Translations under genes and position numbers: made by a program
Assembly: GCA_045589955.1 (NCBI GenBank)
Contig: JAZNQD010000009.1
Location: 48,294-112,293 of the forward strand
DNA from: Bacilli bacterium
GTDB lineage: Bacteria > Bacillota_I > Bacilli_A > ML615J-28 > CAG-313
Reading direction: 5' to 3'
Length of the DNA: 64,000 nt
Shown: positions 9,849-22,231 of the stretch, one piece after another
Numbering within the stretch: position 1 is the first letter of the stretch
Layout: each line of letters begins with the position of its first letter
Notes under the pieces: model-generated
The model's input: the letters and a program-made list of their open reading frames with translations, nothing else
Databases searched by the model: none
Told to the model about the DNA's origin: nothing

Positions 9849-9923
9849 TGGCAGAGGCAGAGAGACTCGAACTCCCGACATTTGGTTTTGGGGACCAACG
9901 TTCTACCACTGAACTATACCTCT
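9849..9923 (-). tRNA. tRNA-Trp (CCA)
   Basis: Cloverleaf folded by hand: acceptor AGAGGTA/TGCCTCT, D GTTC/GAAC, anticodon loop CCCCAAA, T-loop TTCGAGT, encoded CCA. Confidence 0.7.
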
Positions 9924-10005
9924 GTGGCATACCCGGCAGGAAGATGTCCTACTCTTACGATGATGGAAACCGTATGCTTCACTTGATTCACGGGTATATA
10001 ATAAT

Positions 10006-10082
10006 TGGGGTGACTGATGGGACTTGAACCCACAACATTCGGGACCACAACCCGACGCTCTACCAATTGAGCTACAGCCAAC
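10006..10082 (-). tRNA. tRNA-His (GTG)
   Basis: Anticodon loop TTGTGGT, extra G-1 paired with discriminator C, encoded CCA. Confidence 0.7.
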
Positions 10083-10088
10083 ATAATA

Positions 10089-10162
10089 TGGAGCACTGTA
10101 GAGGAATTGCACCTCTCTTGTCGGTTTTGCAGACCGATGCATAACTTCTCTGCCAACAGTGC
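10089..10162 (-). tRNA. tRNA-Cys (GCA), atypical T-loop
   Basis: Acceptor GCACTGT/ACAGTGC, anticodon loop CTGCAAA, T-loop TGCAATT is non-canonical, encoded CCA. Confidence 0.55.
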
Positions 10163-10164
10163 AA

Positions 10165-10240
10165 TGGTGGTCAAGGACGGGATCGAACCGCCGACACGAA
10201 GATTTTCAGTCTCCTGCTCTACCTACTGAGCTACTTGACC
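10165..10240 (-). tRNA. tRNA-Phe (GAA)
   Basis: Acceptor GGTCAAG/CTTGACC, D GCTC/GAGC, anticodon loop CTGAAAA, T-loop TTCGATC, CCA. Confidence 0.75.
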
Positions 10241-13473: not shown

Positions 13474-13716
13474 TTATAATAACTCAATTAATTTTTGTTT
13501 ATTATACTTACGTAAAGCGTTTTTAGCTTCTAATTCGCTATCATATACTTCTTCGTATTCTTTTATCACATTTTGTTTATATGTATTTTCTTTTTGCATT
13601 AATTTCCAGCTAGCTATCCAACCAATAAGTTTATTTTGTAAAGCGGGATGTTCTGGACGTTTAAACGTTGATTTTTCTACATATACTTTATCTAAATTTA
13701 TTTCTGTGTTAATCAT
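13474..13716 (-). CDS. hypothetical protein
   Basis: 80 aa ORF. Confidence 0.5.
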   Translation of the reverse strand: MINTEINLDKVYVEKSTFKRPEHPALQNKLIGWIASWKLMQKENTYKQNVIKEYEEVYDSELEAKNALRKYNKQKLIELL

Positions 13717-14079: not shown

Positions 14080-15114
14080 TTAATATGTACTTAAATTATC
14101 AAAATATCCTTTAACATAAACAACCGGCGTTCCTTTATCACCACTACCAGATGTCAAATCCATTAAAGAACCTAATAAATCAGTTAATCTTCTTGGAGTA
14201 GTACCTTGTGAAACCATATTACCTACTAAATTTTTATCTTTTTCTTTGATACTTTGCTTAATAGTATTAGTTAAATCATCACCGCTTAAATCTTTATAAT
14301 CATTATCAGCTAAATATTTAAGTTTTAATTCGTTAGGTGTTCCTTTTAATCCATCTGTATAAGCAGGACTTACAACAGGATCAGCCAATTCCCAAATACC
14401 ACCAACAGGATCTTTAAAACAACCATCTCCATATACCATTACTTCAATTGTTTTTCCTGTTTTTTCATAAATTGTTTTTTGGATACAATCAATTAATTTT
14501 TTTGCAGAAGAATACGACGGAAATAATTTTAGCTTTTCTTCAGTCGCTTTATTACTTCCATATAGACCATATTCACATTTATCTGAACAAATATCTTTTA
14601 AGGTTATATCAAACGTATTTTTATGAATCTGACAATCTATAATCCCATTAACATTACATACCGATTCATTTTGGTATACAATATAACACTCTTTACCTTC
14701 TGCTTCAACAATTGATTTATAATATTCATCATAATTCAATCCGGTAAAAGGATGATTTTGTAATACATTACCAACTTCATCGACATTAGGCATTCTTATA
14801 TAAACAGTTCCAGTAACTGCTCGTGCAATACCTTTTAAAATCATTGCAAAACGATTACGCGAATAAATTGGATTAAATACTAAAATATCTTTTGGATTAT
14901 TGAATACTTTTTTAACAGATTCGGCAACTTCATCAACCGTAACATAATTACCTTCTGTTCTTGCAACAATAGATTCTGTAATACCTAAAACATCTTTATC
15001 ATCTATTTCTAACCCACTATTTAAAAGTGTATCTGAAACAATTTGAGCTAAATCATCACCTTCTTTGAAAATTGGACAAACTAATCCATATACAGATGTA
15101 CCTATTGTGCGCAT
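14080..15114 (-). CDS. CofE-like (F420-0:gamma-glutamyl ligase family) amide ligase homolog
   Basis: N-terminal [13 protein letters not shown]...[20 protein letters not shown] and C-terminal [12 protein letters not shown] resemble conserved CofE/FbiB blocks (GDDLAELI, SKAEGR, EGTPVV.VRG). Confidence 0.5.
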
Positions 15115-15138
15115 ATATAATCCCCTTTTTTAATGAAA

Positions 15139-15216
15139 TGGTGCGTCGAGCTGGATTCGAACCAACGACCAATCCGTTATGAGCGGACAGCTCTAACCGG
15201 GCTGAGCTACCGACGC
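15139..15216 (-). tRNA. tRNA-Met (CAT)
   Basis: Acceptor GCGTCGG/TCGACGC, anticodon loop CTCATAA, T-loop TTCGAAT, CCA; elongator or Ile-lysidine type not distinguishable. Confidence 0.7.
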
Positions 15217-15260
15217 ATATTTATTTAAATAACTAATAATCATGTTATTAAAAAATAAAA

Positions 15261-15334
15261 TGGCTGGAGGAACTGGAATCGAACCAGTATTCTGAGTGCC
15301 AAAAACTCATGTCCTTCCCTTAGACGATCCTCCA
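15261..15334 (-). tRNA. tRNA-Gln (TTG)
   Basis: Acceptor TGGAGGA/TCCTCCA, anticodon loop TTTTGGC, T-loop TTCGATT, CCA. Confidence 0.6.
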
Positions 15335-15338
15335 ATAA

Positions 15339-15423
15339 TGGTGGGTGAGGATGGATTTGAACCACCGATGTCTAAGACGGCGGATTTACAGTCCGCTGCA
15401 ATAACCAACTATGCGACTCACCC
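15339..15423 (-). tRNA. tRNA-Tyr (GTA), type II
   Basis: Acceptor GGGTGAG/CTCACCC, anticodon loop CTGTAAA, long variable arm, T-loop TTCAAAT, CCA. Confidence 0.65.
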
Positions 15424-15428
15424 TTAAA

Positions 15429-15505
15429 TGGTCGGAATGGCGAGACTTGAACTCACGACATCTAGTACCCAAAACTAGCGCTCTACCAGGCTGAGCTACA
15501 TTCCG
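15429..15505 (-). tRNA. tRNA-Pro (TGG)
   Basis: Acceptor CGGAATG/CATTCCG, D GCTC/GAGC, anticodon loop TTTGGGT, T-loop TTCAAGT, CCA. Confidence 0.7.
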
Positions 15506-15520
15506 AAAGGATATATTTTA

Positions 15521-15552
15521 TATATACTATAGAATAATAATTGTAAAACATA
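15521..15552 (-). promoter_or_regulatory. promoter for tRNA array 2 (TGTTTTACA-15-TATATA)
   Basis: Minus-sense TTTACA and TATATA about 15 nt before tRNA-Pro 5' end. Confidence 0.45.
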
Positions 15553-15557
15553 AAAAT

Positions 15558-15590
15558 AAAAAATACCCACAAAATTTCTTTTATGGGCAC
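15558..15590 (-). terminator. rho-independent terminator of 15700..15951 gene
   Basis: CCCA-loop-TGGG hairpin followed by TATTTTTTATTTTT on minus. Confidence 0.4.
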
Positions 15591-15699
15591 TTCCTACTTA
15601 TGAGATTATTTTAAGTAATAACTACCCATCAACCGTTTATAGGTTGTTGATAATAAGGGTAGAAATATGTCATCAAAATATTCATCATGGTTTATAGAA

Positions 15700-15951
15700 C
15701 TACTTTTTAAATAAAAAATTATGTATTTTTTCTAATTTATCTTTATTTATGTCGTTTTCTTTAGTATCGGGTATAATAGCATCTACTTTACAATGTGGAC
15801 AAATTGCAGTAAGTGTATCATCAGTCCATTCCTCTATTTCTACCGTTTTAATTTTTCTTTTACAATATGCACAATAGCAAAAATCTATTTCCGATAGAAC
15901 TTCACGGTTATATATTGTCTGAGTGAGATACTTTTTCATTATATATTCCAA
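15700..15951 (-). CDS. zinc-ribbon small protein
   Basis: CYCAYC...CPHC four-Cys pattern; likely true start ATG at 15937-15939. Confidence 0.5.
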   Translation of the reverse strand: MEYIMKKYLTQTIYNREVLSEIDFCYCAYCKRKIKTVEIEEWTDDTLTAICPHCKVDAIIPDTKENDINKDKLEKIHNFLFKK

Positions 15952-16013
15952 AAAAAAGTAGAAGAGGATTAAGTTAAAGACCGTATTTTACGAAAAACAC
16001 ACTCTTAATCCTC
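15951..16013 (-). terminator. rho-independent terminator of vWA gene
   Basis: 11-bp stem AGAGGATTAAG/CTTAATCCTCT (large loop) followed by U8 on minus sense. Confidence 0.5.
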
Positions 16014-16147
16014 TCCCGGCGTCGTGAACTCTACAGCTCCGACCGATTGCTTTCTACTAAGTGCAATCATTGTTACCACTATTCATGTATCATGTTTTGG
16101 TAAACTGCTGTACGTTTTTCACGGTCTCTAAATTATTATCTAGAACA

Positions 16148-17701
16148 TTAATATACTATTTGCATATAACGCTCTTGGTTAATAACTTTCAAAGTTGCTT
16201 CTAAAGCATCATAATCTTCGCCTAATGCAATTTTCATAACAGAAGGTGAACAACCAGATAACAAAATATTATTCTTATCGTTAACCGTAATAGGAGTTTG
16301 ATTACTACGACTATCTACGTTCCACCATATTAACTTAGGTAAAGTATATCCAGCTTTTTCATATTTAGCCTTTATACCTTCATAATTAGTAAAACCAAAT
16401 GAGTATTCATCAAATTCCATATCTGAAATAATAATAAGTTGTTTTGGCATATCAGCATCTGGTACTTTTTCGGCAACAGCTCTTTTCAAAATTAAATCGA
16501 AAACACTTTGTAAATTAGTATTACTACAATCACCGGTAAAAACAGAACGAATTTTATCCAATAATGTATTACCTTTAACTATTTTCCACTGTGCGTTACA
16601 TGAAAAAGGAATTACATAGTTACGCCAAACCAAAGACTTATTTCTTTCTGCTATATAAATTGCTAAAGACAAAGATACAGCCATCGGTAAACCATTCATT
16701 GAACCAGATGTATCGCAAACAACCAAACCGTTTATTTCTGGTACATAATCCGGTAAAGCTTTCCATTGCGCCTCGACAGTAGGATTTATATTGATATGAG
16801 AGCCATAACCAATAAAATCATAAGCATCACTATAAACCCGAATTAAATCATACGGATATAATGTTTTAGCATTTATTTTAGCTTTACCTTCTTTTACCGC
16901 TTCTATATACGCATTATACTTATCAGAATCGTTTTTAAAGAAAGCTTTTCTGTATTTAAATGCAGCATAAGAAGGAAGATTTTCATAGTTAATTTTATCG
17001 TATTCTTTATTAACTAATTTTGTTTCAACTATATCCAAATCTTTACGTAATAAAACCAAAGCTCTTCTATAAGCTCCAATTGCACCAAACTTCCCAGATT
17101 TCAACAGTATATTTAACCACTTACGTTTTTCTGCATTTTTTACGCTTGTTCGTGGTAACCATTTAGCTAATAAAGAAATATCATATAATTCACCTTTAAA
17201 ATGATGTTGTAAATCTTTTTCTAATTGCATACCTATATAATCTATTACTTCATCTCGACAAGCAGTAAGTAATAGTGGCATATAATCATCATATCTACCA
17301 TATTCTGCAATTAAACCTAAATTTTTGCATATCCAATCTTTTTCGACATTACCTAAATATTCTAAGCAAATACGAAATACTTTACGTTCACCTTGTCCGC
17401 CTCTTACATCACGAATATAAAAAAGAGTACGTAAAGCCAAAGTTTTATCATAGTTAAATGCATTTACAAAAAGATTTAATATACGAGATTTATCAGTTTC
17501 TTTACGTAAAGCTGCACCATGAAAAAACCAATCAACAAGAGCGTTTTGTGTAGAAATATTAGTCAACGCCCCATTTTCAGTATAGGTTTTATTTGACATA
17601 GCATTAATAAACGCATTAGTAGAAGATTCACTTACTAATGGTATAGCTTTAAACTCAGAAATTTTTGCAGTATATCCTAATAAATCTGTATATGTTTTCA
17701 T
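16148..17701 (-). CDS. vWA-domain protein with MIDAS motif and N-terminal helical DUF2828/TROVE-like module
   Basis: LVVCDTSGSMNG (DxSxS MIDAS) about residue 330; N-terminal YIRDVRGGQGERKVF block reminiscent of DUF2828 proteins; promoter upstream. Confidence 0.5.
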   Translation of the reverse strand: MKTYTDLLGYTAKISEFKAIPLVSESSTNAFINAMSNKTYTENGALTNISTQNALVDWFFHGAALRKETDKSRILNLFVNAFNYDKTLALRTLFYIRDVRGGQGERKVFRICLEYLGNVEKDWICKNLGLIAEYGRYDDYMPLLLTACRDEVIDYIGMQLEKDLQHHFKGELYDISLLAKWLPRTSVKNAEKRKWLNILLKSGKFGAIGAYRRALVLLRKDLDIVETKLVNKEYDKINYENLPSYAAFKYRKAFFKNDSDKYNAYIEAVKEGKAKINAKTLYPYDLIRVYSDAYDFIGYGSHININPTVEAQWKALPDYVPEINGLVVCDTSGSMNGLPMAVSLSLAIYIAERNKSLVWRNYVIPFSCNAQWKIVKGNTLLDKIRSVFTGDCSNTNLQSVFDLILKRAVAEKVPDADMPKQLIIISDMEFDEYSFGFTNYEGIKAKYEKAGYTLPKLIWWNVDSRSNQTPITVNDKNNILLSGCSPSVMKIALGEDYDALEATLKVINQERYMQIVY

Positions 17702-17729
17702 AACTAATCCCTCTTTTTATACAAGACAT

Positions 17730-17765
17730 ATTATAGGTAAAAAAATTTAAAGTAAAACAAAAAAC
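17730..17765 (-). promoter_or_regulatory. sigma70-like promoter of vWA gene (TTTTTTGTTTTACTTT-15-TATAAT)
   Basis: Minus-sense TTTACT and TATAAT; GAGGG RBS before ATG 17701. Confidence 0.5.
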
Positions 17766-17775
17766 GATATTTTAA

Positions 17776-17991
17776 TTATTCACTTTCTTCTGAATCCGAT
17801 TCGATATAGTTTAATTTGTTATAATTCGAATCTACAATTTCTTTAGTGCGAATAGATTCTTCATAAAAACGATCTTCATGGTTGACAATACCCAATGCCC
17901 ATAACAATTGAATGAATCGCATATCTGGGCATTTTTCAACCATATCTGCTACTTTATCTAAAATATATTTATTTGTATCATTACGACTCAT
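17776..17991 (-). CDS. hypothetical protein
   Basis: 71 aa ORF. Confidence 0.45.
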   Translation of the reverse strand: MSRNDTNKYILDKVADMVEKCPDMRFIQLLWALGIVNHEDRFYEESIRTKEIVDSNYNKLNYIESDSEESE

Positions 17992-18338
17992 GCATTTGTC
18001 CTCTATTAATATTTAAAACAATACTTAACGCAGTACAAATATAATTTCAAGTTGATAAGAAATGCTAATTTTGATACTGCGTTTTAGTCATCTGTGCTTT
18101 GTCACTCCGATGAACCCGAGCATTCCACTTCGATCTTTAAGCAGCCAATCTGGACCCGATCTCTGTTCTCTTTATACTAGTAAACAGTCGTGAGCTAACT
18201 CTAGTAGTGTCTTTCCAACCAGCCAGATGTCTTTCCATCAGTATAGAGATTAACCACATTAAAGAATCACCAATAACTGTTAATCTCTTTTATAGAAGAT
18301 ACTACATTGCAAATTTCTCTTCTACAAATTCCTATAAA

Positions 18339-18431
18339 TGGCGGAATCAGAAGGATTCGAACCTTCGGCCCCTCATAATAAGGGACGACAGTTTAGCAAA
18401 CTGCTGGTTTCAGCCACTCACCCATGATTCC
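18339..18431 (-). tRNA. tRNA-Ser (GCT), type II
   Basis: Acceptor GGAATCA/TGATTCC, anticodon loop TGCTAAA, long variable arm, T-loop TTCGAAT, CCA. Confidence 0.7.
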
Positions 18432-18442
18432 AAAAAAAAAAC

Positions 18443-18520
18443 GGCTAGAGGAGGTGGAGTCGAACCACACACAACCAATATCTGCAGATACTAGAATTTC
18501 CCTCTACTTCCCGTCTTCTT
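18443..18520 (-). ncRNA. truncated tRNA-like element (acceptor stem + T-arm, single 8-bp hairpin replacing D and anticodon arms)
   Basis: Acceptor TAGAGGG/TCCTCTA, T-arm GTGG-TTCGACT-CCAC, hairpin CTAGTATC-TGCA-GATATTGG, 3' end CCG not CCA, followed by U10. Confidence 0.4.
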
Positions 18521-18579
18521 AATCAAACTTTCTTTCTGCAGAAATACTTATTTGACATAGTAGAGCTCCTCTTATAAAA

Positions 18580-18655
18580 TGGTGGAGGTAAGGAGGTTCG
18601 AACTCCTGACCCCCTGCTTGCAAAGCAGGTGCTCTCCCAACTGAGCTATACCCCC
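18580..18655 (-). tRNA. tRNA-Ala (TGC)
   Basis: Acceptor GGGGGTA/TACCTCC with G3:U70, anticodon loop TTTGCAA, T-loop TTCGAAC, CCA. Confidence 0.75.
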
Positions 18656-18862
18656 ACAAAAATAATATCTTATATAAGCGATTAATTGATACTTTATATA
18701 CAAGGTGCGAATCAGCGTTAGGCAGAGTTAGGACAATAAATCTTTCGGATATCACGACTTACCTAAGAAAATTCCTGTTAGCTCTTTCGGTGGTTGCCTC
18801 TATCATTCGTGTGTTAGATTTACTCAATTAATCATAATCCCTCGCACAAGGAATAGATATAA

Positions 18863-18938
18863 TGGCACACTCAACAGGACTCGAACCTGTAATAAAAGTT
18901 TAGAAGACTTTGGGTTTGTCCAATTAGCCTATGAGTGT
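18863..18938 (-). tRNA. tRNA-Arg (TCT)
   Basis: Acceptor ACACTCA/TGAGTGT, anticodon loop CTTCTAA, T-loop TTCGAGT, CCA; weak D-stem. Confidence 0.6.
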
Positions 18939-18940
18939 AA

Positions 18941-19012
18941 AAAATGAAGTAAACTAACCGTTAGACTGAATAGACAGTAAAGGAGTCGAACCTTATTTAA
19001 TTACTTCATAAA
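18941..19012 (-). ncRNA. tRNA-sized degenerate tRNA-like remnant
   Basis: Exactly fills the gap between tRNA-Arg and tRNA-Asp; 9-bp terminal stem ATGAAGTAA/TTACTTCAT and internal AAGG-TTCGACT-CCTT T-arm-like hairpin but no canonical cloverleaf on either strand. Confidence 0.3.
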
Positions 19013-19015
19013 AAC

Positions 19016-19092
19016 TGGCGGGATTGATGGGGCTCGAACCCACGACCCTCTGCGTGACAGGCAGATATTCTAACCAGCTGAACTACAACCCC
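19016..19092 (-). tRNA. tRNA-Asp (GTC)
   Basis: Acceptor GGGGTTG/CAATCCC, anticodon loop CTGTCAC, T-loop TTCGAGC, CCA. Confidence 0.7.
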
Positions 19093-19229
19093 GTAAATGG
19101 TGGATAGGTGGGATTTTCACCCACATTTTTTAATTGACCGGTAAGTTTTACATTTCAAAAACACTCATAATGATTTATCTAGATAATTACTATTTTAATT
19201 TTTGTTTTTAAACTACTATCCTATAAAAA

Positions 19230-19314
19230 TGGCGGAGGGTGAGGGACTCGAACTCTCACAACCTTTCGGTCGGCGGTTTTCAAGACCGCTGCAATACCAT
19301 TATGCGAACCCTCC
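19230..19314 (-). tRNA. tRNA-Ser (TGA), type II
   Basis: Acceptor GGAGGGT/ACCCTCC, anticodon loop CTTGAAA, long variable arm, T-loop TTCGAGT, CCA. Confidence 0.7.
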
Positions 19315-19486
19315 AAAATAAAGGTGCTTTATCAGTACTCTTACGTAATAAAGCTTCGACTGCAGTTCAGGCATCCTTTCCACCTATATAGATGTAGTTC
19401 TATACCGACTCCCTATTTCAAACATTAGGGGCATGTACCAAACAAACTTATCTAGAATCAATGTTCGTTTGGATTTAAAGTACAGA

Positions 19487-19687
19487 TTATTTAAATACTA
19501 CTGGCATAACACTTAAATAATCCGTACTTTCTTTTTTCCAATCAAACTTTTTTATTTCTTTTTTCTTATTTTTAATTACTCTAGTACGTAATAAACCTTT
19601 TAACTGAGCCTCTATCAACATAAAATTTCGTCTTTTAGGCGCTTTAATTTTAAGCTTAAACTTATTTTTCATAATCTTGACCTTCAA
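19487..19687 (-). CDS. small highly basic hypothetical protein
   Basis: 66 aa, Lys/Arg rich; directly downstream of ACP gene. Confidence 0.4.
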   Translation of the reverse strand: MKVKIMKNKFKLKIKAPKRRNFMLIEAQLKGLLRTRVIKNKKKEIKKFDWKKESTDYLSVMPVVFK

Positions 19688-19938
19688 ATATGTTTTTCAA
19701 GATATTCAACTAAGTCCTTTACAGTTTCTATTTTTTCAGCATCATTATCTGCAATTTCTAAACCAAATTCTTCTTCAACGTACATAATTAATTCAACATG
19801 ATCTAAACTATCTAAATATAAATCATTATCAAAAGTATGTGTCATAAGAATTTCATTTCTATGCTTACCTGACACGTCTTCAATTAATTTTGCAACTTTA
19901 TTGAATATCTCTTTGTTTTCCATGACCATTTCTTTCAT
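19684..19938 (-). CDS. acpP: acyl carrier protein
   Basis: MKEMVMENKEIFNKVAKLIEDV...DNDLYLDSLDHVELIMYVEEEFGLEIADNDAEKIETVKDLVEYL carries the DSL phosphopantetheine-attachment motif and helix-II acidic patch. The ORF-track N-terminal extension 19939..20106 is spurious because it overlaps two tRNAs. Confidence 0.75.
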   Translation of the reverse strand: MKEMVMENKEIFNKVAKLIEDVSGKHRNEILMTHTFDNDLYLDSLDHVELIMYVEEEFGLEIADNDAEKIETVKDLVEYLEKHI

Positions 19939-19943
19939 ATAAT

Positions 19944-20019
19944 TGGAGCGAGTGAACGGGCTCGAACCGTCGACATCAACCTTGGCAAGGTTGCGCTCTA
20001 CCAACTGAGCTACACTCGC
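19944..20019 (-). tRNA. tRNA-Gly (GCC)
   Basis: Acceptor GCGAGTG/CACTCGC, D GCTC/GAGC, anticodon loop TTGCCAA, T-loop TTCGAGC, CCA. Confidence 0.75.
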
Positions 20020-20028
20020 AAAAAATGC

Positions 20029-20150
20029 GGGTAAGGGATAGATTCGAACTACCGACCAAGAGGTTACCAACCATGCAGATACAATTGCTGTGCCTATTTT
20101 TACCAAAATAGTTTATTTGCTTCTTGCTCTAACCGCTGAGCTACCTTACC
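20029..20150 (-). tRNA. anomalous 122-nt tRNA (candidate Thr, GGT) with about 50 nt of extra internal sequence; possible intron-containing gene or pseudogene
   Basis: Perfect acceptor GGTAAGG/CCTTACC, D-arm GCTC-AGCGGTTAGA-GC and T-arm GGTAG-TTCGAAT-CTATC, internal CTATT-TTGGTAA-AATAG anticodon-like hairpin, 3' end GCA instead of CCA. Confidence 0.4.
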
Positions 20151-20158
20151 CATAAGAA

Positions 20159-20398
20159 CTAACTTATTTCAATAGTTTTAAATAAAAATGTAATGGTAAT
20201 CTGAAATGTACGAATTATATCTTCATCTAAAACTTCTACAAATAACACTTTATCACCGTCTAATGCAACACTTTTCGAATACCATTCTGGATGTTTTTCT
20301 ACCCATTCTTGCGCTAATGACATGGGATGAAGATTTTGTTCACTCTCATAGTCTTCCCAGTCAATATCATTTTGTAATCGTATTTTACATTTTTGCAT
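20159..20398 (-). CDS. hypothetical protein
   Basis: 79 aa ORF. Confidence 0.45.
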   Translation of the reverse strand: MQKCKIRLQNDIDWEDYESEQNLHPMSLAQEWVEKHPEWYSKSVALDGDKVLFVEVLDEDIIRTFQITITFLFKTIEIS

Positions 20399-20420
20399 TT
20401 AACATCTTTCTTTTAAATTG

Positions 20421-20507
20421 TGGTGGGCTAGGCCGGAATCGAACCGGCACGGGATTGCTCCCAACAGATTTTAAGTCTGCAGCGTCTACCAGTTCCGCCA
20501 CAAGCCC
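20421..20507 (-). tRNA. tRNA-Leu (TAA), type II
   Basis: Anticodon loop CTTAAAA, long variable arm, T-arm GCCGG-TTCGATT-CCGGC, CCA. Confidence 0.7.
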
Positions 20508-20526
20508 ATATTAAGTAATAATTTCT

Positions 20527-20567
20527 TAAAAAAGAAGTGTCCTTTATTTTCAAGAACACTTACAATA
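20527..20567 (-). terminator. rho-independent terminator after small basic protein gene
   Basis: Hairpin AAGTGTTC...GGACACTT followed by CTTTTTTAAG on minus. Confidence 0.4.
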
Positions 20568-20603
20568 TGCATTAAAATTTTTAAATGTAAAACAAAAAAG
20601 TGA

Positions 20604-20789
20604 TTATTTTTTCTTTTTACTCGCTACTTGTAAAGTGACTTCTTTTTTAGCAGTGTTAGTATTACACGATGGAGCTTTACCAACTGTTGATTTTAATAAA
20701 TGAAAGCTTGGCATTAATTTCATTCTTTTTGCCCAGCGTTTAGCAAACATTATTTCTTCAACAGTTTTCTTTTTCTTTTCCATAGCCAT
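20604..20789 (-). CDS. small basic protein (61 aa)
   Basis: Start moved to ATG 20787-20789 (MAMEKKKK) with AGGAG RBS; the longer ORF-track start overlaps tRNA-Asn. Confidence 0.45.
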   Translation of the reverse strand: MAMEKKKKTVEEIMFAKRWAKRMKLMPSFHLLKSTVGKAPSCNTNTAKKEVTLQVASKKKK

Positions 20790-20815
20790 TATATCATACT
20801 CCTTTTTATAAAAAT

Positions 20816-20890
20816 TGGCTGGGATGGAGGGATTCGAACCCCCGACCAATCGGTTAACAGCTGATTGCACTGCCGCTGTGCTACATCCCA
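20816..20890 (-). tRNA. tRNA-Asn (GTT)
   Basis: Acceptor TGGGATG/CATCCCA, D GCAC/GTGC, anticodon loop CTGTTAA, T-loop TTCGAAT, CCA. Confidence 0.65.
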
Positions 20891-20902
20891 ATGATTAAAA
20901 GT

Positions 20903-20979
20903 TGGTTGGCCGAGCGAGACTTGAACTTGCGACCCCAGCTTTATCAGAGCTGTGCTCTAACCACCTGAGCTACCGACCA
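20903..20979 (-). tRNA. tRNA-Ile (GAT)
   Basis: Anticodon stem CAGCT/AGCTG with loop CTGATAA, T-loop TTCAAGT, CCA. Confidence 0.7.
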
Positions 20980-20984
20980 ATAAA

Positions 20985-21060
20985 TGGTGCCAGCAGAGAG
21001 ACTTGAACTCCCAACCTTCTCATTACAAGTGAGTTGCTCTACCAATTGAGCTATGCTGGC
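20985..21060 (-). tRNA. tRNA-Thr (TGT)
   Basis: Acceptor GCCAGCA/TGCTGGC, D GCTC/GAGC, anticodon loop CTTGTAA, T-loop TTCAAGT, CCA. Confidence 0.7.
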
Positions 21061-21077
21061 AATGTATAATATAAGAA

Positions 21078-21596
21078 CTATTCTCTCGAATTATTTTTAG
21101 AAACAAATTTCTGTTTTTTATTCTTTTTGGAATTTTTCATATATTTATTTCTAATTTCTTGTATTTTCTGCTTCTTTTGTTGAAGTAACATATTCTCATA
21201 TCGTTTACGTATTTCTTTAGCACTTTTATCAGCTTCCTTGTTATAATAAGAAAGGACAGTACCGTCTTGGCAATGTCCCTTAATCCACATAACATGGCAA
21301 TTCAAAGCTTCTAATCGTTCTAAAATGTTATCGAGAATTATTTTTTCATTTGGTCGATATGAGCCATTTCTAATTGCGTGAATTGCGTATGAAGAATCCG
21401 TTAACAAGGTAATATGTTCTTTAGTATCTTTTATACTAACAAGAGCAAATAAAATAGCGCGTAATTCAGCAGTATTATTATCAGATTCTTCTACAACCGC
21501 AGCATCTCTAAAAATTTCTCTGTTTCTAGCGTCTGTAATAACAAATGCTATACCCGAATTATTTTTACGTGTGCTTGCGTCGGTATATATTTTCAC
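21078..21596 (-). CDS. rnhA: ribonuclease H (RNase HI-like)
   Basis: DASTRKNNSGIAFVI...AELRAILFAL...LLTDSSYAI...MWIKGHCQDGT...NKEADKSAKE matches D-E-D-H-D RNase H catalytic layout. Confidence 0.6.
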   Translation of the reverse strand: MKIYTDASTRKNNSGIAFVITDARNREIFRDAAVVEESDNNTAELRAILFALVSIKDTKEHITLLTDSSYAIHAIRNGSYRPNEKIILDNILERLEALNCHVMWIKGHCQDGTVLSYYNKEADKSAKEIRKRYENMLLQQKKQKIQEIRNKYMKNSKKNKKQKFVSKNNSRE

Positions 21597-21649
21597 AAGA
21601 TTTGTCCTAGCTTAATTTACCTATTATCTAGAACATTTAGTGATATAAT

Positions 21650-21726
21650 TGGTGATCCCGACGAGATTCGAACTCGTGATCTTCTCCGTGAAAGGGAGAT
21701 GTCCTAGGCCGCTAGACGACGGGACC
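21650..21726 (-). tRNA. tRNA-Glu (TTC)
   Basis: Close to canonical bacterial tRNA-Glu: GGTCCCG-TC-GTCT-AGCGGCCTA-GGAC, anticodon loop CTTTCAC, T-loop TTCGAAT, CCA. Confidence 0.8.
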
Positions 21727-21831
21727 ATTGGCGGGGGTAGCTATATCGGTGTCATTGCGCAACCTATGTAAACGTCCAAACTATAACTAGTATTCGTAAG
21801 GATAGTTTTACCGACCCCCATAGTATAAATC

Positions 21832-22104
21832 TTAAACAGCTACGTTTATACTTGCTCCAACAGAAGTCATTGCACCAGTCATTGCACCTGAAGAATTATA
21901 ACCTGGACAAGCTGGCTGACCAACTGCATTTCTATAATGCTCGCTTGCAATTCCTTGTGTTTGTGACGAATTCAAAGCAATTAAAATCGATTTTTTCTTT
22001 TCATCATCCTCATCATTAATAATAGCAATCATAGATGAAGATTGACTGCTATAAGTAGATTGACAAGGTGACATTATTTGTGTATTTATTCCGCCTACTT
22101 CCAT
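21832..22104 (-). CDS. hypothetical Ser/Gly/Ala-rich small protein
   Basis: 90 aa ORF. Confidence 0.4.
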   Translation of the reverse strand: MEVGGINTQIMSPCQSTYSSQSSSMIAIINDEDDEKKKSILIALNSSQTQGIASEHYRNAVGQPACPGYNSSGAMTGAMTSVGASINVAV

Positions 22105-22155
22105 GATTTAATATCCTTTTTTTAATATTATCATTTTATAGAACGGTTATTTAAT

Positions 22156-22231
22156 TGGTTGCGAGGGGAGGAATTGAACCTCCTACCCCAAGGTTATGAG
22201 CCTTGTAAGCTAACCGTTGCTCTACCTCGCA
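22156..22231 (-). tRNA. tRNA-Met (CAT), second copy
   Basis: Acceptor TGCGAGG/CCTCGCA, anticodon stem CAAGG/CCTTG with loop CTCATAA, T-arm GGAGG-TTCAATT-CCTCC, CCA. Confidence 0.65.

What the first reader, a model, noticed from the sequence alone, without database searches (positions are those of the whole stretch)
16148..18520. vWA/MIDAS protein with a Ro60/TROVE-like architecture placed next to non-canonical tRNA-like RNAs
The 517-aa protein has an about 320-aa alpha-helical N-terminal region (conserved-looking YIRDVRGGQGERKVF block, as in DUF2828 proteins) followed by a vWA domain with a complete DxSxS MIDAS motif (DTSGSM). The helical-module plus C-terminal-vWA layout matches Ro60/Rsr (TROVE + vWA). 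Bacterial and phage Ro orthologues are characteristically encoded next to Y-RNA genes that contain tRNA-like modules. About 300 nt downstream on the same strand lie an ORF-free structured region (17992-18338) and a truncated tRNA-like element (18443-18520). That element has a perfect acceptor stem and T-arm, a single 8-bp hairpin in place of the D and anticodon arms, no CCA, and a trailing U10. Together these may form an uncharacterised phage RNP (Ro-like protein plus Y-like RNA).
Basis: inference. Interest (0 to 1): 0.7.

Follow-up and report, generated by a model that had tools for sequence, protein, structure and literature searches.

The report
Phage Ro-like protein and partner RNAs
A phage gene for a Ro60-shaped RNA-binding protein sits inside a tRNA gene cluster.

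Summary

The two flagged RNA elements lie upstream of the gene, not downstream. A 95%-identical relative has two ordinary tRNAs in their place. One element is a decayed tRNA-Gln copy. The other is not significantly structured.

Real candidate partner RNAs lie elsewhere. All carry a module: helix, 1-4 nt, ACAGCA(A).
- Window 15950-16147(-): a 198-nt pseudoknotted RNA starting right after the stop codon.
- Window 20027-20151(-): a tRNA-like RNA with the module in its anticodon arm, a YrlA-like design.

Short units of this family flank DUF2828 genes on the same strand in 123 of 140 loci.
- The covariance model found 143 hits, all on the gene's strand, most within 700 nt.
- It found none in 0.8 Mb of control viral DNA.

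Rfam 15 has no such family. Binding and function are inferred, not shown.

The parts
16148..17701 (-). Gene for a 517-aa Ro60-like protein: helical TROVE-like N-terminal module (about residues 30-315) plus vWA domain with a MIDAS motif (D330-x-S332-G-S334; T395 and D427 also invariant).
15950..16147 (-). Long-form module RNA (198 nt). It starts at the first base after the stop codon and ends in a hairpin plus U8, just before the next ORF's ribosome-binding site.
   Evidence: Model R1 gives 80-143 bits in 11 loci, always just 3' of the gene, or after one extra ORF in L004. The motif AAAACGTACAGCA occurs once in the 64-kb window. The downstream gene differs between loci while the RNA stays with the Ro-like gene. 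No Rfam match.
16114..16131 (-). 5' strand of long-range helix S1 (S1a 16131-16121, S1b 16120-16114). The conserved ACAGCA follows two bases later at 16111-16106.
   Evidence: Coordinates. Cognate duplex energy averages -17.1 against -9.6 +/- 2.9 kcal/mol for non-cognate pairs over 11 loci. 12 of 17 pairs show changes on both sides; 0 of 500 shuffles reach this; slid controls give at most 57% paired.
15974..15998 (-). 3' strand of S1 (S1b' 15998-15992, a 7-nt bulge GUAAAAU, S1a' 15984-15974). It lies inside the apical loop of hairpin P, so the two helices form a pseudoknot.
15950..16016 (-). Terminal hairpin P (5' strand 16016-16004, 3' strand 15973-15961) followed by U8 (15957-15950); terminator-like.
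   Evidence: A hairpin with a different stem sequence sits at this place in every relative. Pair counts were not made because stem lengths vary and the columns are out of register.
20027..20151 (-). tRNA-like RNA carrying the module. It has an acceptor stem, D arm and T arm. A 49-nt insert in the anticodon arm holds a hairpin (20111-20094), then GC, then ACAGCAA (20091-20085). No CCA is encoded.
   Evidence: Sequence. ARAGORN with the intron option calls 'tRNA-Thr(GGU)' with a 49-nt insert at position 32/33. It is one of 35 distinct such RNAs in Ro-like loci. RNAalifold on 24 of them gives acceptor, D, module hairpin and T helices, with 18 of 20 pairs compensated. A weak Rfam YrlA hit overlaps it (19971-20081, 24 bits).
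17776..17991 (-). 71-aa ORF directly upstream of the Ro-like gene. It is conserved at this position within this phage lineage; function unknown.
   Evidence: 92% identical in L001 and 49% in L005 at the same position. No Pfam or PHROG match.
15700..15951 (-). Small Cys-rich protein (CxxC...CxxC; likely start at the ATG at 15939) downstream of the long-form RNA. It is conserved in part of the lineage.
   Evidence: phrog_30788, E 1.5e-11. Homologues at the same position in L001 and L005, and similar Cys-rich ORFs visible in the L016 and L217 sequences.
18432..18520 (-). It is a degenerate tRNA-Gln-derived pseudo-tRNA in a variable cassette.
   Evidence: Its 3' half aligns to the window's own tRNA-Gln (15261-15334) with 36 of 42 positions identical; it shares U1-A72 and G73. 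Absent from the 95%-identical relative L001. No ACAGCA. No tRNA-model hit. Its 26-mer has no match in IMG/VR.
17992..18338 (-). It is an unconserved spacer in the same variable cassette.
   Evidence: Fold z = -1.3. Replaced by tRNA-Val in L001/L002. No Rfam hit. No blastn match in 50,697 phage records.

Best explanation
The gene encodes a phage Ro60-like protein, a helical TROVE-like module plus a vWA/MIDAS domain, of the DUF2828/phrog_850 family. It is embedded in the phage's tRNA gene array.

I propose that it forms a ribonucleoprotein with small phage-encoded RNAs that share one recognition module: a helix, then 1-4 nt, then single-stranded ACAGCA(A).

The window has two such RNAs:
- a 198-nt pseudoknotted RNA read straight on from the gene's stop codon (15950-16147);
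- a tRNA-like RNA (20027-20151) in which the module takes the place of the anticodon arm.

By analogy with Ro60/Rsr and Y RNA/YrlA, the protein would bind the module. The variable or tRNA-like part of the RNA would then tether or decoy other factors, such as exoribonucleases, tRNA-processing enzymes or host nucleases that attack tRNA. The particle would serve tRNA/ncRNA surveillance or counter-defence during infection.

Shown here: the fold similarity, the gene-RNA co-location and strand bias, the covariation, and the tRNA-like scaffolds.
Inferred: physical binding, and the biological role.
For: Protein:
- DxSxS of the MIDAS motif, plus T395 and D427, are invariant.

Context:
- Same-strand tRNA genes lie within 5 kb in 7 of 7 unrelated phage genera.
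- In 80 IMG/VR loci, tRNA density is about 1.0 per kb in the 5 kb upstream and 0.36 per kb further out; 611 of 683 tRNAs are on the gene's strand.
- RtcB, RNA ligase, Band-7 and Pnkp genes are neighbours in some lineages.

RNA:
- Same-strand stem+ACAGC units number 215 within 700 nt upstream, against 8 on the opposite strand. Downstream the counts are 113 against 16. Inside the gene they are 39 against 47.
- 123 of 140 loci have at least one unit.
- Model R2 found 104 hits, all on the gene's strand, 86 of them within 700 nt of the ORF.
- Replication on 66 genome loci not used for the seed gave 39 hits, all on the gene's strand and nearly all next to the ORF.
- 0.81 Mb of viral DNA gave 0 hits; 99 of those 100 loci lack the gene.
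- The long-range helix of the window's RNA covaries.
- The tRNA-like carriers have compensated acceptor, D and T helices.
- In mycobacteriophage Whirlwind a unit encloses a YrlA-like core: RF02553 positions 24-84, 38 bits.
- No other neighbouring gene is shared by more than 18 of 90 loci. The Ro-like gene is therefore the only constant partner.
Against: - No binding, expression or processing data exist for these RNAs.
- No sequence profile links the protein to TROVE.
- No RNA reaches the Rfam Y_RNA or YrlA gathering score.
- Bas63 gp130 alone, expressed from a plasmid or from T7, restores plaquing on a Ppl-defence strain. At least that phenotype needs no cognate phage RNA (PMC11482910). I did not verify by sequence that gp130 is a homologue; this rests on genus and gene layout.
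- The seed units were picked by complementarity, so the 100% pairing is circular.
- The loci are not all independent, and E-values from the short calibration are rough.
- Units lying in the gene's own 5' and 3' flanks could be cis-acting signals rather than separate RNAs.
- The short-unit model R2 finds nothing in the window itself. The window's two RNAs are variant forms.
Confidence: 0.6

Rival explanations
1. The helix+ACAGCA elements are cis-acting parts of the Ro-like gene's own transcript: leader or trailer structures for autoregulation, processing, stability or termination. They would not be separate partner RNAs. In the window, the 3' RNA would simply be a structured 3' UTR with a terminator whose long-range helix is opened by terminating ribosomes.
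For: - Units lie in the immediate 5' or 3' flank on the gene's strand.
- In the window's lineage the 5' strand of S1 begins 4-17 nt after a stop codon, and the element ends in a hairpin plus U-run directly before the next ORF's ribosome-binding site.
- No strong sigma-70-like promoter lies in front of it.
Against: - Up to 5 tandem units with different stems and loops occur per locus.
- Units also occur kilobases away, inside tRNA arrays.
- The module is built into tRNA-like and YrlA-like scaffolds that have their own acceptor, D and T helices.
- Autoregulation would in any case still require the protein to bind the module.
Confidence: 0.2
2. The tRNA-like carriers, including 20027-20151, are true tRNA genes interrupted by a new kind of short intron, the ACAGCA hairpin. 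The Ro-like protein would then be a cofactor for excision and ligation, or for quality control of these pre-tRNAs.
For: - ARAGORN with the intron option calls them tRNAs with 30-62-nt inserts at positions 30-39.
- Rfam's tRNA model scores four of them at 44-49 bits, above its gathering score.
- With the insert removed, the window and L005 copies keep an anticodon-like loop UUGGUAA.
- RtcB and RNA ligase genes lie near the gene in A511.
Against: - No conserved anticodon stem appears in the consensus fold.
- The 'anticodons' called are erratic, and several (aaa, ggg, act) begin with A or are otherwise rare choices (judgement from general knowledge of bacterial decoding).
- Insert positions vary.
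- None encodes CCA, whereas all 20 canonical tRNAs of the window do.
- Most module RNAs have no tRNA body at all.
- No splicing endonuclease is a conserved neighbour.
Confidence: 0.08
3. One reading: the partner RNAs are the spacer 17992-18338 and the truncated tRNA-like element 18443-18520.
For: - They are on the same strand and close to the gene.
- The element keeps an acceptor/T-arm minihelix, and its 5' leader can pair with the trailing U-run.
Against: - Both are absent from relatives whose flanks are about 95% identical.
- Neither carries the ACAGCA module.
- Fold z-scores are weak.
- No Rfam, IMG/VR or phage-database match.
- The element's 3' half is a diverged copy of tRNA-Gln.
Confidence: 0.03
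4. The protein works without RNA, as a vWA/MIDAS adaptor that binds a host or defence protein (for example as an inhibitor of a Ppl-type nuclease). The flanking RNAs would be an unrelated feature of tRNA-array regions.
For: - Bas63 gp130 alone counters Ppl when moved to a plasmid or into T7.
- vWA/MIDAS domains are usually protein-binding (general knowledge).
Against: - All 143 model hits lie on the gene's strand and cluster within a few hundred nt of the ORF, whether or not tRNAs are adjacent.
- 22 of 80 loci have no tRNA within 10 kb, yet 123 of 140 have units.
- The helical domain matches an RNA-binding ring.
Confidence: 0.07

Closest known systems
Ro60/Rsr with Y RNA, in particular bacterial and phage YrlA (Rfam RF02553; Chen et al. 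2014, PMC4201824)
   Same: - A helical ring-like module plus vWA/MIDAS.
- Partner-candidate RNAs encoded within a few hundred nt on the same strand.
- A terminal helix plus a tRNA-like domain.
- In mycobacteriophage Whirlwind the RNA's core aligns to YrlA model positions 24-84.
   Different: - No TROVE profile match and only 12-14% identity in the fold alignments.
- The outer, protein-binding part of the RNA differs: helix+ACAGCAA in place of the YrlA stem, with model positions 1-23 and 85-114 unmatched.
- Most members are 45-66-nt units with no tRNA-like part, often in tandem arrays.
- In many carriers the tRNA body is not permuted, and the module sits where the anticodon arm should be.
- Chen et al. 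surveyed only genomes annotated with TROVE proteins.
Thermus phage phiLo Ro60 with Yrl1/Yrl2 (PDB 9KOP, 9L5Y; PMC12135203)
   Different: phiLo Ro60 is deposited as a TROVE-domain protein. Its RNAs were picked by a CGAA motif and a stem-bulge-stem shape. The protein here is in a different sequence family and its RNA signature is different.
Bas63 (Felixounavirus) gp130, a counter of the Ppl defence (PhageMaP preprint, PMC11482910)
   Same: Described there as structurally Ro60-like and lying directly upstream of the tRNA genes. That is the layout I find for the DUF2828 homologue in Felixounavirus NJ12. The preprint gives the only experimental phenotype for what is probably this family.
   Different: I could not fetch the Bas63 record to confirm homology. 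The preprint guessed that some annotated tRNAs are Y RNAs. In NJ12 the module RNAs are unannotated units lying between the tRNAs, at +353 and +887. gp130 acted without phage RNAs.
TEP1 with vault RNA / telomerase RNA (the other TROVE-module protein)
   Same: A TROVE-type helical module paired with small structured RNAs that have terminal stems (from general knowledge; not tested here).
   Different: Eukaryotic, very large and multi-domain. It did not appear among the fold hits.
Stable non-tRNA species encoded in phage tRNA clusters (T4 species 1 and 2 / RNAs C and D)
   Same: Small stable RNAs of unknown function encoded among phage tRNA genes, with tRNA-like 3' parts (from memory; not tested).
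   Different: I know of no link to a Ro-like protein or to an ACAGCA module. T4-like coliphage records appeared here only through tRNA similarity.

Membership tests
DUF2828/DUF7788 phage 'RNA-binding protein' (PF11443+PF25043; phrog_850) | Profile matches above the curated cut-offs across both domains | tested here: met
   PF11443 124.6 bits (cut-off 29) and PF25043 132.5 bits (cut-off 27.1). phrog_850 E 5.9e-116 over residues 33-513. More than 8000 homologues.
Ro60/Rsr (TROVE, PF05731) | TROVE domain detectable by a sequence profile | tested here: not met
   No TROVE hit for the protein or for any of 44 family members, even at E<=10. Neither phmmer nor a family profile against PDB sequences finds Ro60.
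Ro60/Rsr (TROVE, PF05731) | Overall fold: helical-repeat module followed by a vWA domain, superposable on Ro60 | tested here: met
Ro60/Rsr (TROVE, PF05731) | Closed ring with a central cavity and a basic outer RNA-binding surface | not testable with these tools
   Model coordinates and electrostatics cannot be inspected here. Only alignment scores are returned.
Ro60/Rsr (TROVE, PF05731) | MIDAS motif in the vWA domain (DxSxS plus distal T and D) | tested here: met
   DTSGSM at residues 330-335. D330, S332, G333, S334, T395 and D427 are invariant in 44 sequences; the assignment of T395 and D427 to the MIDAS site is by invariance, not by inspecting the model.
Ro60/Rsr (TROVE, PF05731) | Small structured RNA(s) encoded next to the gene on the same strand | tested here: met
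   Window RNAs at 15950-16147 and 20027-20151.
Ro60/Rsr (TROVE, PF05731) | Physical binding of those RNAs | not testable with these tools
   Needs RIP, EMSA or a structure.
YrlA / Y RNA (RF02553, RF00019) | Covariance-model match at the gathering score | tested here: not met
   Window: 24.4 bits against 69, at 19971-20081. Nine other loci: none at gathering. Best partial match 38.3 bits, in Whirlwind.
YrlA / Y RNA (RF02553, RF00019) | tRNA-like domain (acceptor-like, D and T helices) joined to a protein-binding helix | tested here: met
   35 distinct carriers. The consensus fold has compensated acceptor, D and T helices plus the module hairpin. Whirlwind unit 2 has the permuted YrlA core inside a closing stem plus ACAGCAA.
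   No RF00005 hit at E<=10. ARAGORN finds it only at a relaxed threshold, with a 2-nt 'anticodon'. No D arm; 4-nt hairpin loop; ends GCCG.
Helix+ACAGCA(A) module RNAs (family proposed here) | Helix ending in a C-G pair, 1-4 nt linker, ACAGCA(A/G), on the strand of an adjacent DUF2828 gene | tested here: met
   Window 16120-16106 with partner 15998-15992 (GAAAAAC-GU-ACAGCAG / GUUUUUC). Window 20111-20085 (hairpin-GC-ACAGCAA). The window copies are variant forms and are not found by the short-unit model R2.

The most novel reading that the evidence does not exclude
DUF2828 Ro-like proteins and helix+ACAGCAA RNAs form a widespread, undescribed viral ribonucleoprotein, parallel to Ro60-Y RNA. The RNAs come as simple units, as tRNA mimics and as YrlA-like chimeras. 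The system occurs in Felixounavirus, Herelleviridae, Staphylococcus, Campylobacter, Vibrio and mycobacterial phages, in jumbo phages, and on contigs binned with archaea and Saccharibacteria. The tRNA-like members would let the particle engage tRNA-handling enzymes or decoy tRNA-targeting host defences. That could explain why the gene sits in phage tRNA arrays and why one probable homologue counters a defence system.
Probability: 0.5. Interest if true: 0.8.

Novelty: new variant of a known kind. Interest (0 to 1): 0.72.

Why it matters
Ro60-Y RNA particles are a long-studied but still poorly understood RNA-surveillance system, and a human autoantigen. A second, sequence-unrelated protein family with the same fold, present in several hundred sequenced phages, would carry its own RNA signature, one that can be recognised by computer.

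This would give:
- a tractable set of model phages (Felix O1/Bas63, A511, Staphylococcus 6ec-like phages, cluster L mycobacteriophages) for asking what Ro-type particles do;
- a concrete hypothesis for why phage tRNA arrays carry this gene;
- dozens of unannotated small RNA genes, and 'tRNAs with introns' that are probably tRNA mimics, to correct in phage annotations;
- a specific RNA to test in the reported anti-Ppl activity.

Tried and rejected
- Rfam at gathering score and at E<=10 over the flagged elements: tRNAs only.
- phmmer and a family profile against PDB sequences, and Pfam at E<=10 for 44 members: no TROVE link. The best hit was a chance Nup93 match, E 0.06.
- Exact 26-mer of the tRNA-like element in IMG/VR: 0 hits.
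- The 14-mer AAAAACGTACAGCA in IMG/VR: 120+ hits, only one beside a homologue, so too short to be specific. Those loci were reused as a negative control.
- I first took AAAACRTACAGCA for a general phage promoter. Rejected: it occurs once in the window.
- nhmmer with sequence-only profiles of the long-form RNA finds only close relatives.
- MAFFT alone could not put the 3' strands of the short units in register (A4). A length-matched seed (A5) was used instead.
- Formal pair counts for hairpin P were dropped because the stems are out of register.
- Megablast of the region against phage records: only tRNA-sized matches, no close relative.
- blastn of the spacer 17992-18338 against phage records: no match.
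- Guessed Bas63 accessions: MZ501111 is Bas51 and MZ501123 does not exist.
- The Burroughs & Aravind 2016 RNA-repair paper is not in the library.
- Literature search for 'DUF2828' returned only plant and tardigrade papers. 'ACAGCAA' returned only primer noise.
Full report
**1. The observation**

The window carries an ORF at 16148..17701 on the MINUS strand. It is 517 aa and contains the quoted YIRDVRGGQGERKVF and DTSGSM strings. All 20 tRNA genes of the window are on that strand too, in three groups: 9849-10240, 15139-15505 and 18339-22231. The gene therefore sits inside a phage tRNA array.

They are not downstream. A canonical tRNA-Ser(GCU) at 18339-18431 lies between them and was missed.

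**2. The protein**

- Pfam assigns DUF2828 (6e-36) plus DUF7788 (2e-38).
- PHROGs assigns phrog_850, 'RNA-binding protein' (6e-116).
- tblastn finds homologues in 711 phage records. Several are already labelled 'Ro-like RNA binding protein', 'RNA-binding protein' or 'putative ribonucleoprotein'.
- The large protein collection holds more than 8000 relatives.

An AlphaFold2 model built on 44 homologues is confident (pLDDT 89.5, pTM 0.88). It is helical to about residue 315 and then alpha/beta.
- Foldseek against the PDB puts seven Ro60 chains first: Xenopus (E 5.6e-8, TM 0.59), human, and Thermus phage phiLo. Only isolated vWA domains follow.
- D330, S332, G333, S334, T395 and D427 are invariant, consistent with a full MIDAS site.

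No sequence method reaches TROVE. The protein works like, and is shaped like, Ro60. It is not a TROVE-family member by the sequence test.

**3.

Relatives L001 and L002 have flanks about 95% identical in DNA. They carry tRNA-Ser(ACU)+tRNA-Val(UAC) where the window has 18017-18575. Both flagged elements therefore sit in a variable cassette.

- The 347-nt spacer folds no better than shuffles (z = -1.3) and matches nothing in the phage records.
- The tRNA-like element has z = -2.1.
- Its 3' half, with the T-run, aligns to the window's own tRNA-Gln, 36 of 42 positions identical.
- Its acceptor keeps U1-A72 and G73.
- It has no D arm, a 4-nt hairpin loop and GCCG in place of CCA.
- Neither the tRNA model nor default ARAGORN accepts it.

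It is best read as a decayed tRNA-Gln copy. Neither element is conserved with the gene.

**4. Gene context across phages**

In seven unrelated genera the homologue lies within 5 kb of same-strand tRNA genes. The genera are Felixounavirus, Pecentumvirus (A511), Lumosvirus (Whirlwind), Mylasvirus (nt-1), Fletchervirus, Sextaecvirus and Schiekvirus.

In 80 IMG/VR loci:
- 32 have a tRNA within 1 kb and 58 within 10 kb;
- tRNA density is about 1.0 per kb in the 5 kb upstream, against 0.36 per kb at 5-10 kb;
- 611 of 683 tRNAs are on the gene's strand.

RNA-repair genes are neighbours in some lineages: RtcB, RNA ligase and an HD phosphohydrolase in A511; Band-7 in Whirlwind and six loci; Pnkp in five loci. 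An HNH gene lies directly upstream in 18 of 90 loci. No neighbour is universal.

**5. A conserved RNA directly after the stop codon (window 15950-16147, minus strand)**

Reading the 3' flank in relatives of 55-97% protein identity showed one design everywhere:
- a segment right after the stop codon (S1);
- the motif AAAAC(R)UACAGCA, which occurs once in the 64-kb window;
- a variable middle;
- a long hairpin P followed by a U-run.

The apical loop of P is complementary to S1, so the two helices form a pseudoknot.

The pairing co-evolves. Examples:
- GACCGU/ACGGUC in the window;
- GACUGU/ACAGUC in L016 and L217;
- GGGCUGU/ACAGCCC in L216;
- GAAAGCUAG/CUAGCUUUC in L215;
- UCUGAUGAUAU/AUAUCAUCAGA in L220.

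Cognate duplexes average -17.1 kcal/mol, against -9.6 +/- 2.9 for non-cognate pairs. On the model-based alignment, 12 of 17 pairs change on both sides. No shuffle out of 500 reaches this, and slid controls give at most 57% paired.

The gene downstream differs between loci, but the RNA always stays with the Ro-like gene. In L004 one extra ORF lies between them. Rfam has nothing here.

**6. The same module in distant clades**

Weak hits of that model clustered just upstream of homologues only 38-41% identical. Reading those regions showed tandem units of 45-66 nt:

5'-UAAGAYNC-UA-ACAGCAA-(A-rich stretch with a small hairpin)-AAAU-GNRUCUUG-3'

A neutral scan looked for a stem of at least 6 bp, then 1-4 nt, then ACAGC[AU], with a matching 3' strand. 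It was run on both strands of 178 loci:

| Zone | Gene's strand | Opposite strand |
|---|---|---|
| Within 700 nt upstream | 215 | 8 |
| Within 700 nt downstream | 113 | 16 |
| Inside the gene | 39 | 47 |

Of 140 loci with full flanks, 123 have at least one unit. Units lie beside the gene in NJ12, A511, Whirlwind, nt-1, CJLB-7, S-CoN_Ph8 and EfsSzw-1.

A covariance model built from 22 units (A5, R2) gave:
- 104 hits in 1.6 Mb, all on the gene's strand, 86 of them within 700 nt of the ORF;
- 39 hits, all on the gene's strand and nearly all next to the ORF, in 66 genome-derived loci that played no part in the seed;
- none in 0.81 Mb of viral contigs, 99 of whose 100 loci lack the gene.

Caveats:
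- The seed units were chosen by complementarity, so their 100% pairing is not independent evidence.
- The strand, position and control results are independent.
- Some loci are near-duplicates.

**7. tRNA-like carriers, including one in the window**

At 20027-20151(-) the window has an acceptor stem, a D arm and a T arm. A 49-nt insert takes the place of the anticodon arm. It holds the hairpin CUAUUUU-GGUA-AAAAUAG, then GC, then ACAGCAA. This is the module with its helix capped by a loop instead of open ends. Rfam's weak YrlA hit overlaps this RNA.

ARAGORN with the intron option finds 35 distinct RNAs of this kind in the loci, most of them 100-650 nt from the gene. RNAalifold on a plain MAFFT alignment of 24 of them recovers the acceptor (7 bp), D (4), module hairpin (4) and T (5) helices. 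18 of 20 pairs are compensated, ACAGC is invariant, and there is no anticodon stem.

In Whirlwind, the middle of three units downstream of the gene encloses a YrlA-like core: T arm, acceptor-like hairpin, D arm (RF02553 positions 24-84, 38 bits). The core is closed by GGACCCC/GGGGUCC plus ACAGCAA. YrlA's own outer stem is not matched.

The design is therefore that of YrlA, with a different protein-binding end.

**8. What is known**

- Chen et al. 2014 searched only genomes annotated with TROVE proteins.
- The phiLo study concerns a TROVE-type phage Ro60.
- The PhageMaP preprint reports that Bas63 gp130 is Ro60-like and lies just upstream of the tRNA genes. It counters the Ppl defence, even when expressed alone from a plasmid or from T7. 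The authors guessed that some annotated tRNAs might be Y RNAs.
- I found no description of the ACAGCAA-module RNAs in Rfam 15 or in the searchable literature. That library is incomplete.

**9. Verdict**

The protein observation and its Ro-like reading are right, but they are not new. The comparative work uncovers what appears to be the real, previously unannotated RNA partner family. Two members lie in this window.

Binding and function remain inferences. A purely cis-regulatory role and a tRNA-intron reading are the main rivals.

Noticed in passing
window 18017-18575: A variable cassette in the tRNA array. A relative with about 95% identical flanks (L001/L002) has tRNA-Ser(ACU)+tRNA-Val(UAC) here. 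The window has a pseudo-tRNA, a diverged tRNA-Ser(GCU) (about 79% identical to the relative's tRNA-Ser) and a 322-nt unmatched spacer. This points to recombination inside phage tRNA arrays.
   Followed up: partly
window 19684-19938 (-), 21078-21596 (-), 14080-15114 (-): Protein genes interspersed in or beside the tRNA array: an acyl carrier protein (phrog_5934), an RNase H (phrog_531) and an F420-0:gamma-glutamyl ligase (CofE)-like protein (Pfam 5e-46). The last is conserved next to the locus in L001.
   Followed up: no
L008 (Listeria phage A511) 3498-4049: A ROOL-like large RNA (RF03087, 87.5 bits, just under the gathering score of 99.1) lies between the tRNA array and the Ro-like gene. It is unannotated in the record.
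   Followed up: no
L013 (Enterococcus phage EfsSzw-1) 1204-1554: A phage-encoded tmRNA (150 bits; tag AKNEELLAVA) inside the tRNA array upstream of the Ro-like gene.
   Followed up: no
18 of 90 DUF2828 loci, e.g. L035 9219-9689: A 156-aa HNH endonuclease gene (PF01844/PF14279) lies directly upstream of the Ro-like gene on the same strand (median 312 nt away). This looks more like a conserved pair than a stray homing endonuclease.
   Followed up: partly
L094 15213-15315; L075 4848-4884 and 16001-16087: Rfam wcaG RNA (75.9 bits) and abiF RNA (53.8 bits) matches in the same phage tRNA-array regions.
   Followed up: no
L299 (JBJFGR010000076.1): The closest genome-collection relative (61% identity) is a 12-kb contig binned with a Succinivibrionaceae MAG. 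Many other relatives come from rumen or gut samples, and close relatives sit on 234-254-kb contigs. The window may come from a jumbo phage of gut or rumen Gammaproteobacteria.
   Followed up: no
window 15554-15599 (-): A long AU-rich hairpin followed by a T-run, between the Cys-rich ORF and tRNA-Pro. It is the only terminator-like site on the gene's strand in 15000-19500.
   Followed up: no
L309, L341, L360 (genome contigs): Ro-like gene plus module-RNA hits on contigs binned as Promethearchaeota, Pacearchaeota and Saccharibacteria. Either their viruses carry the system or the binning is wrong.
   Followed up: no
L004 11544-11819 and window 13474-13716 (-): The 91-aa ORF that lies between the Ro-like gene and its 3' RNA in L004 looked similar by eye to an 80-aa ORF that is 2.4 kb downstream in the window. 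This was not tested with an alignment. If real, it suggests gene shuffling around the RNA.
   Followed up: no
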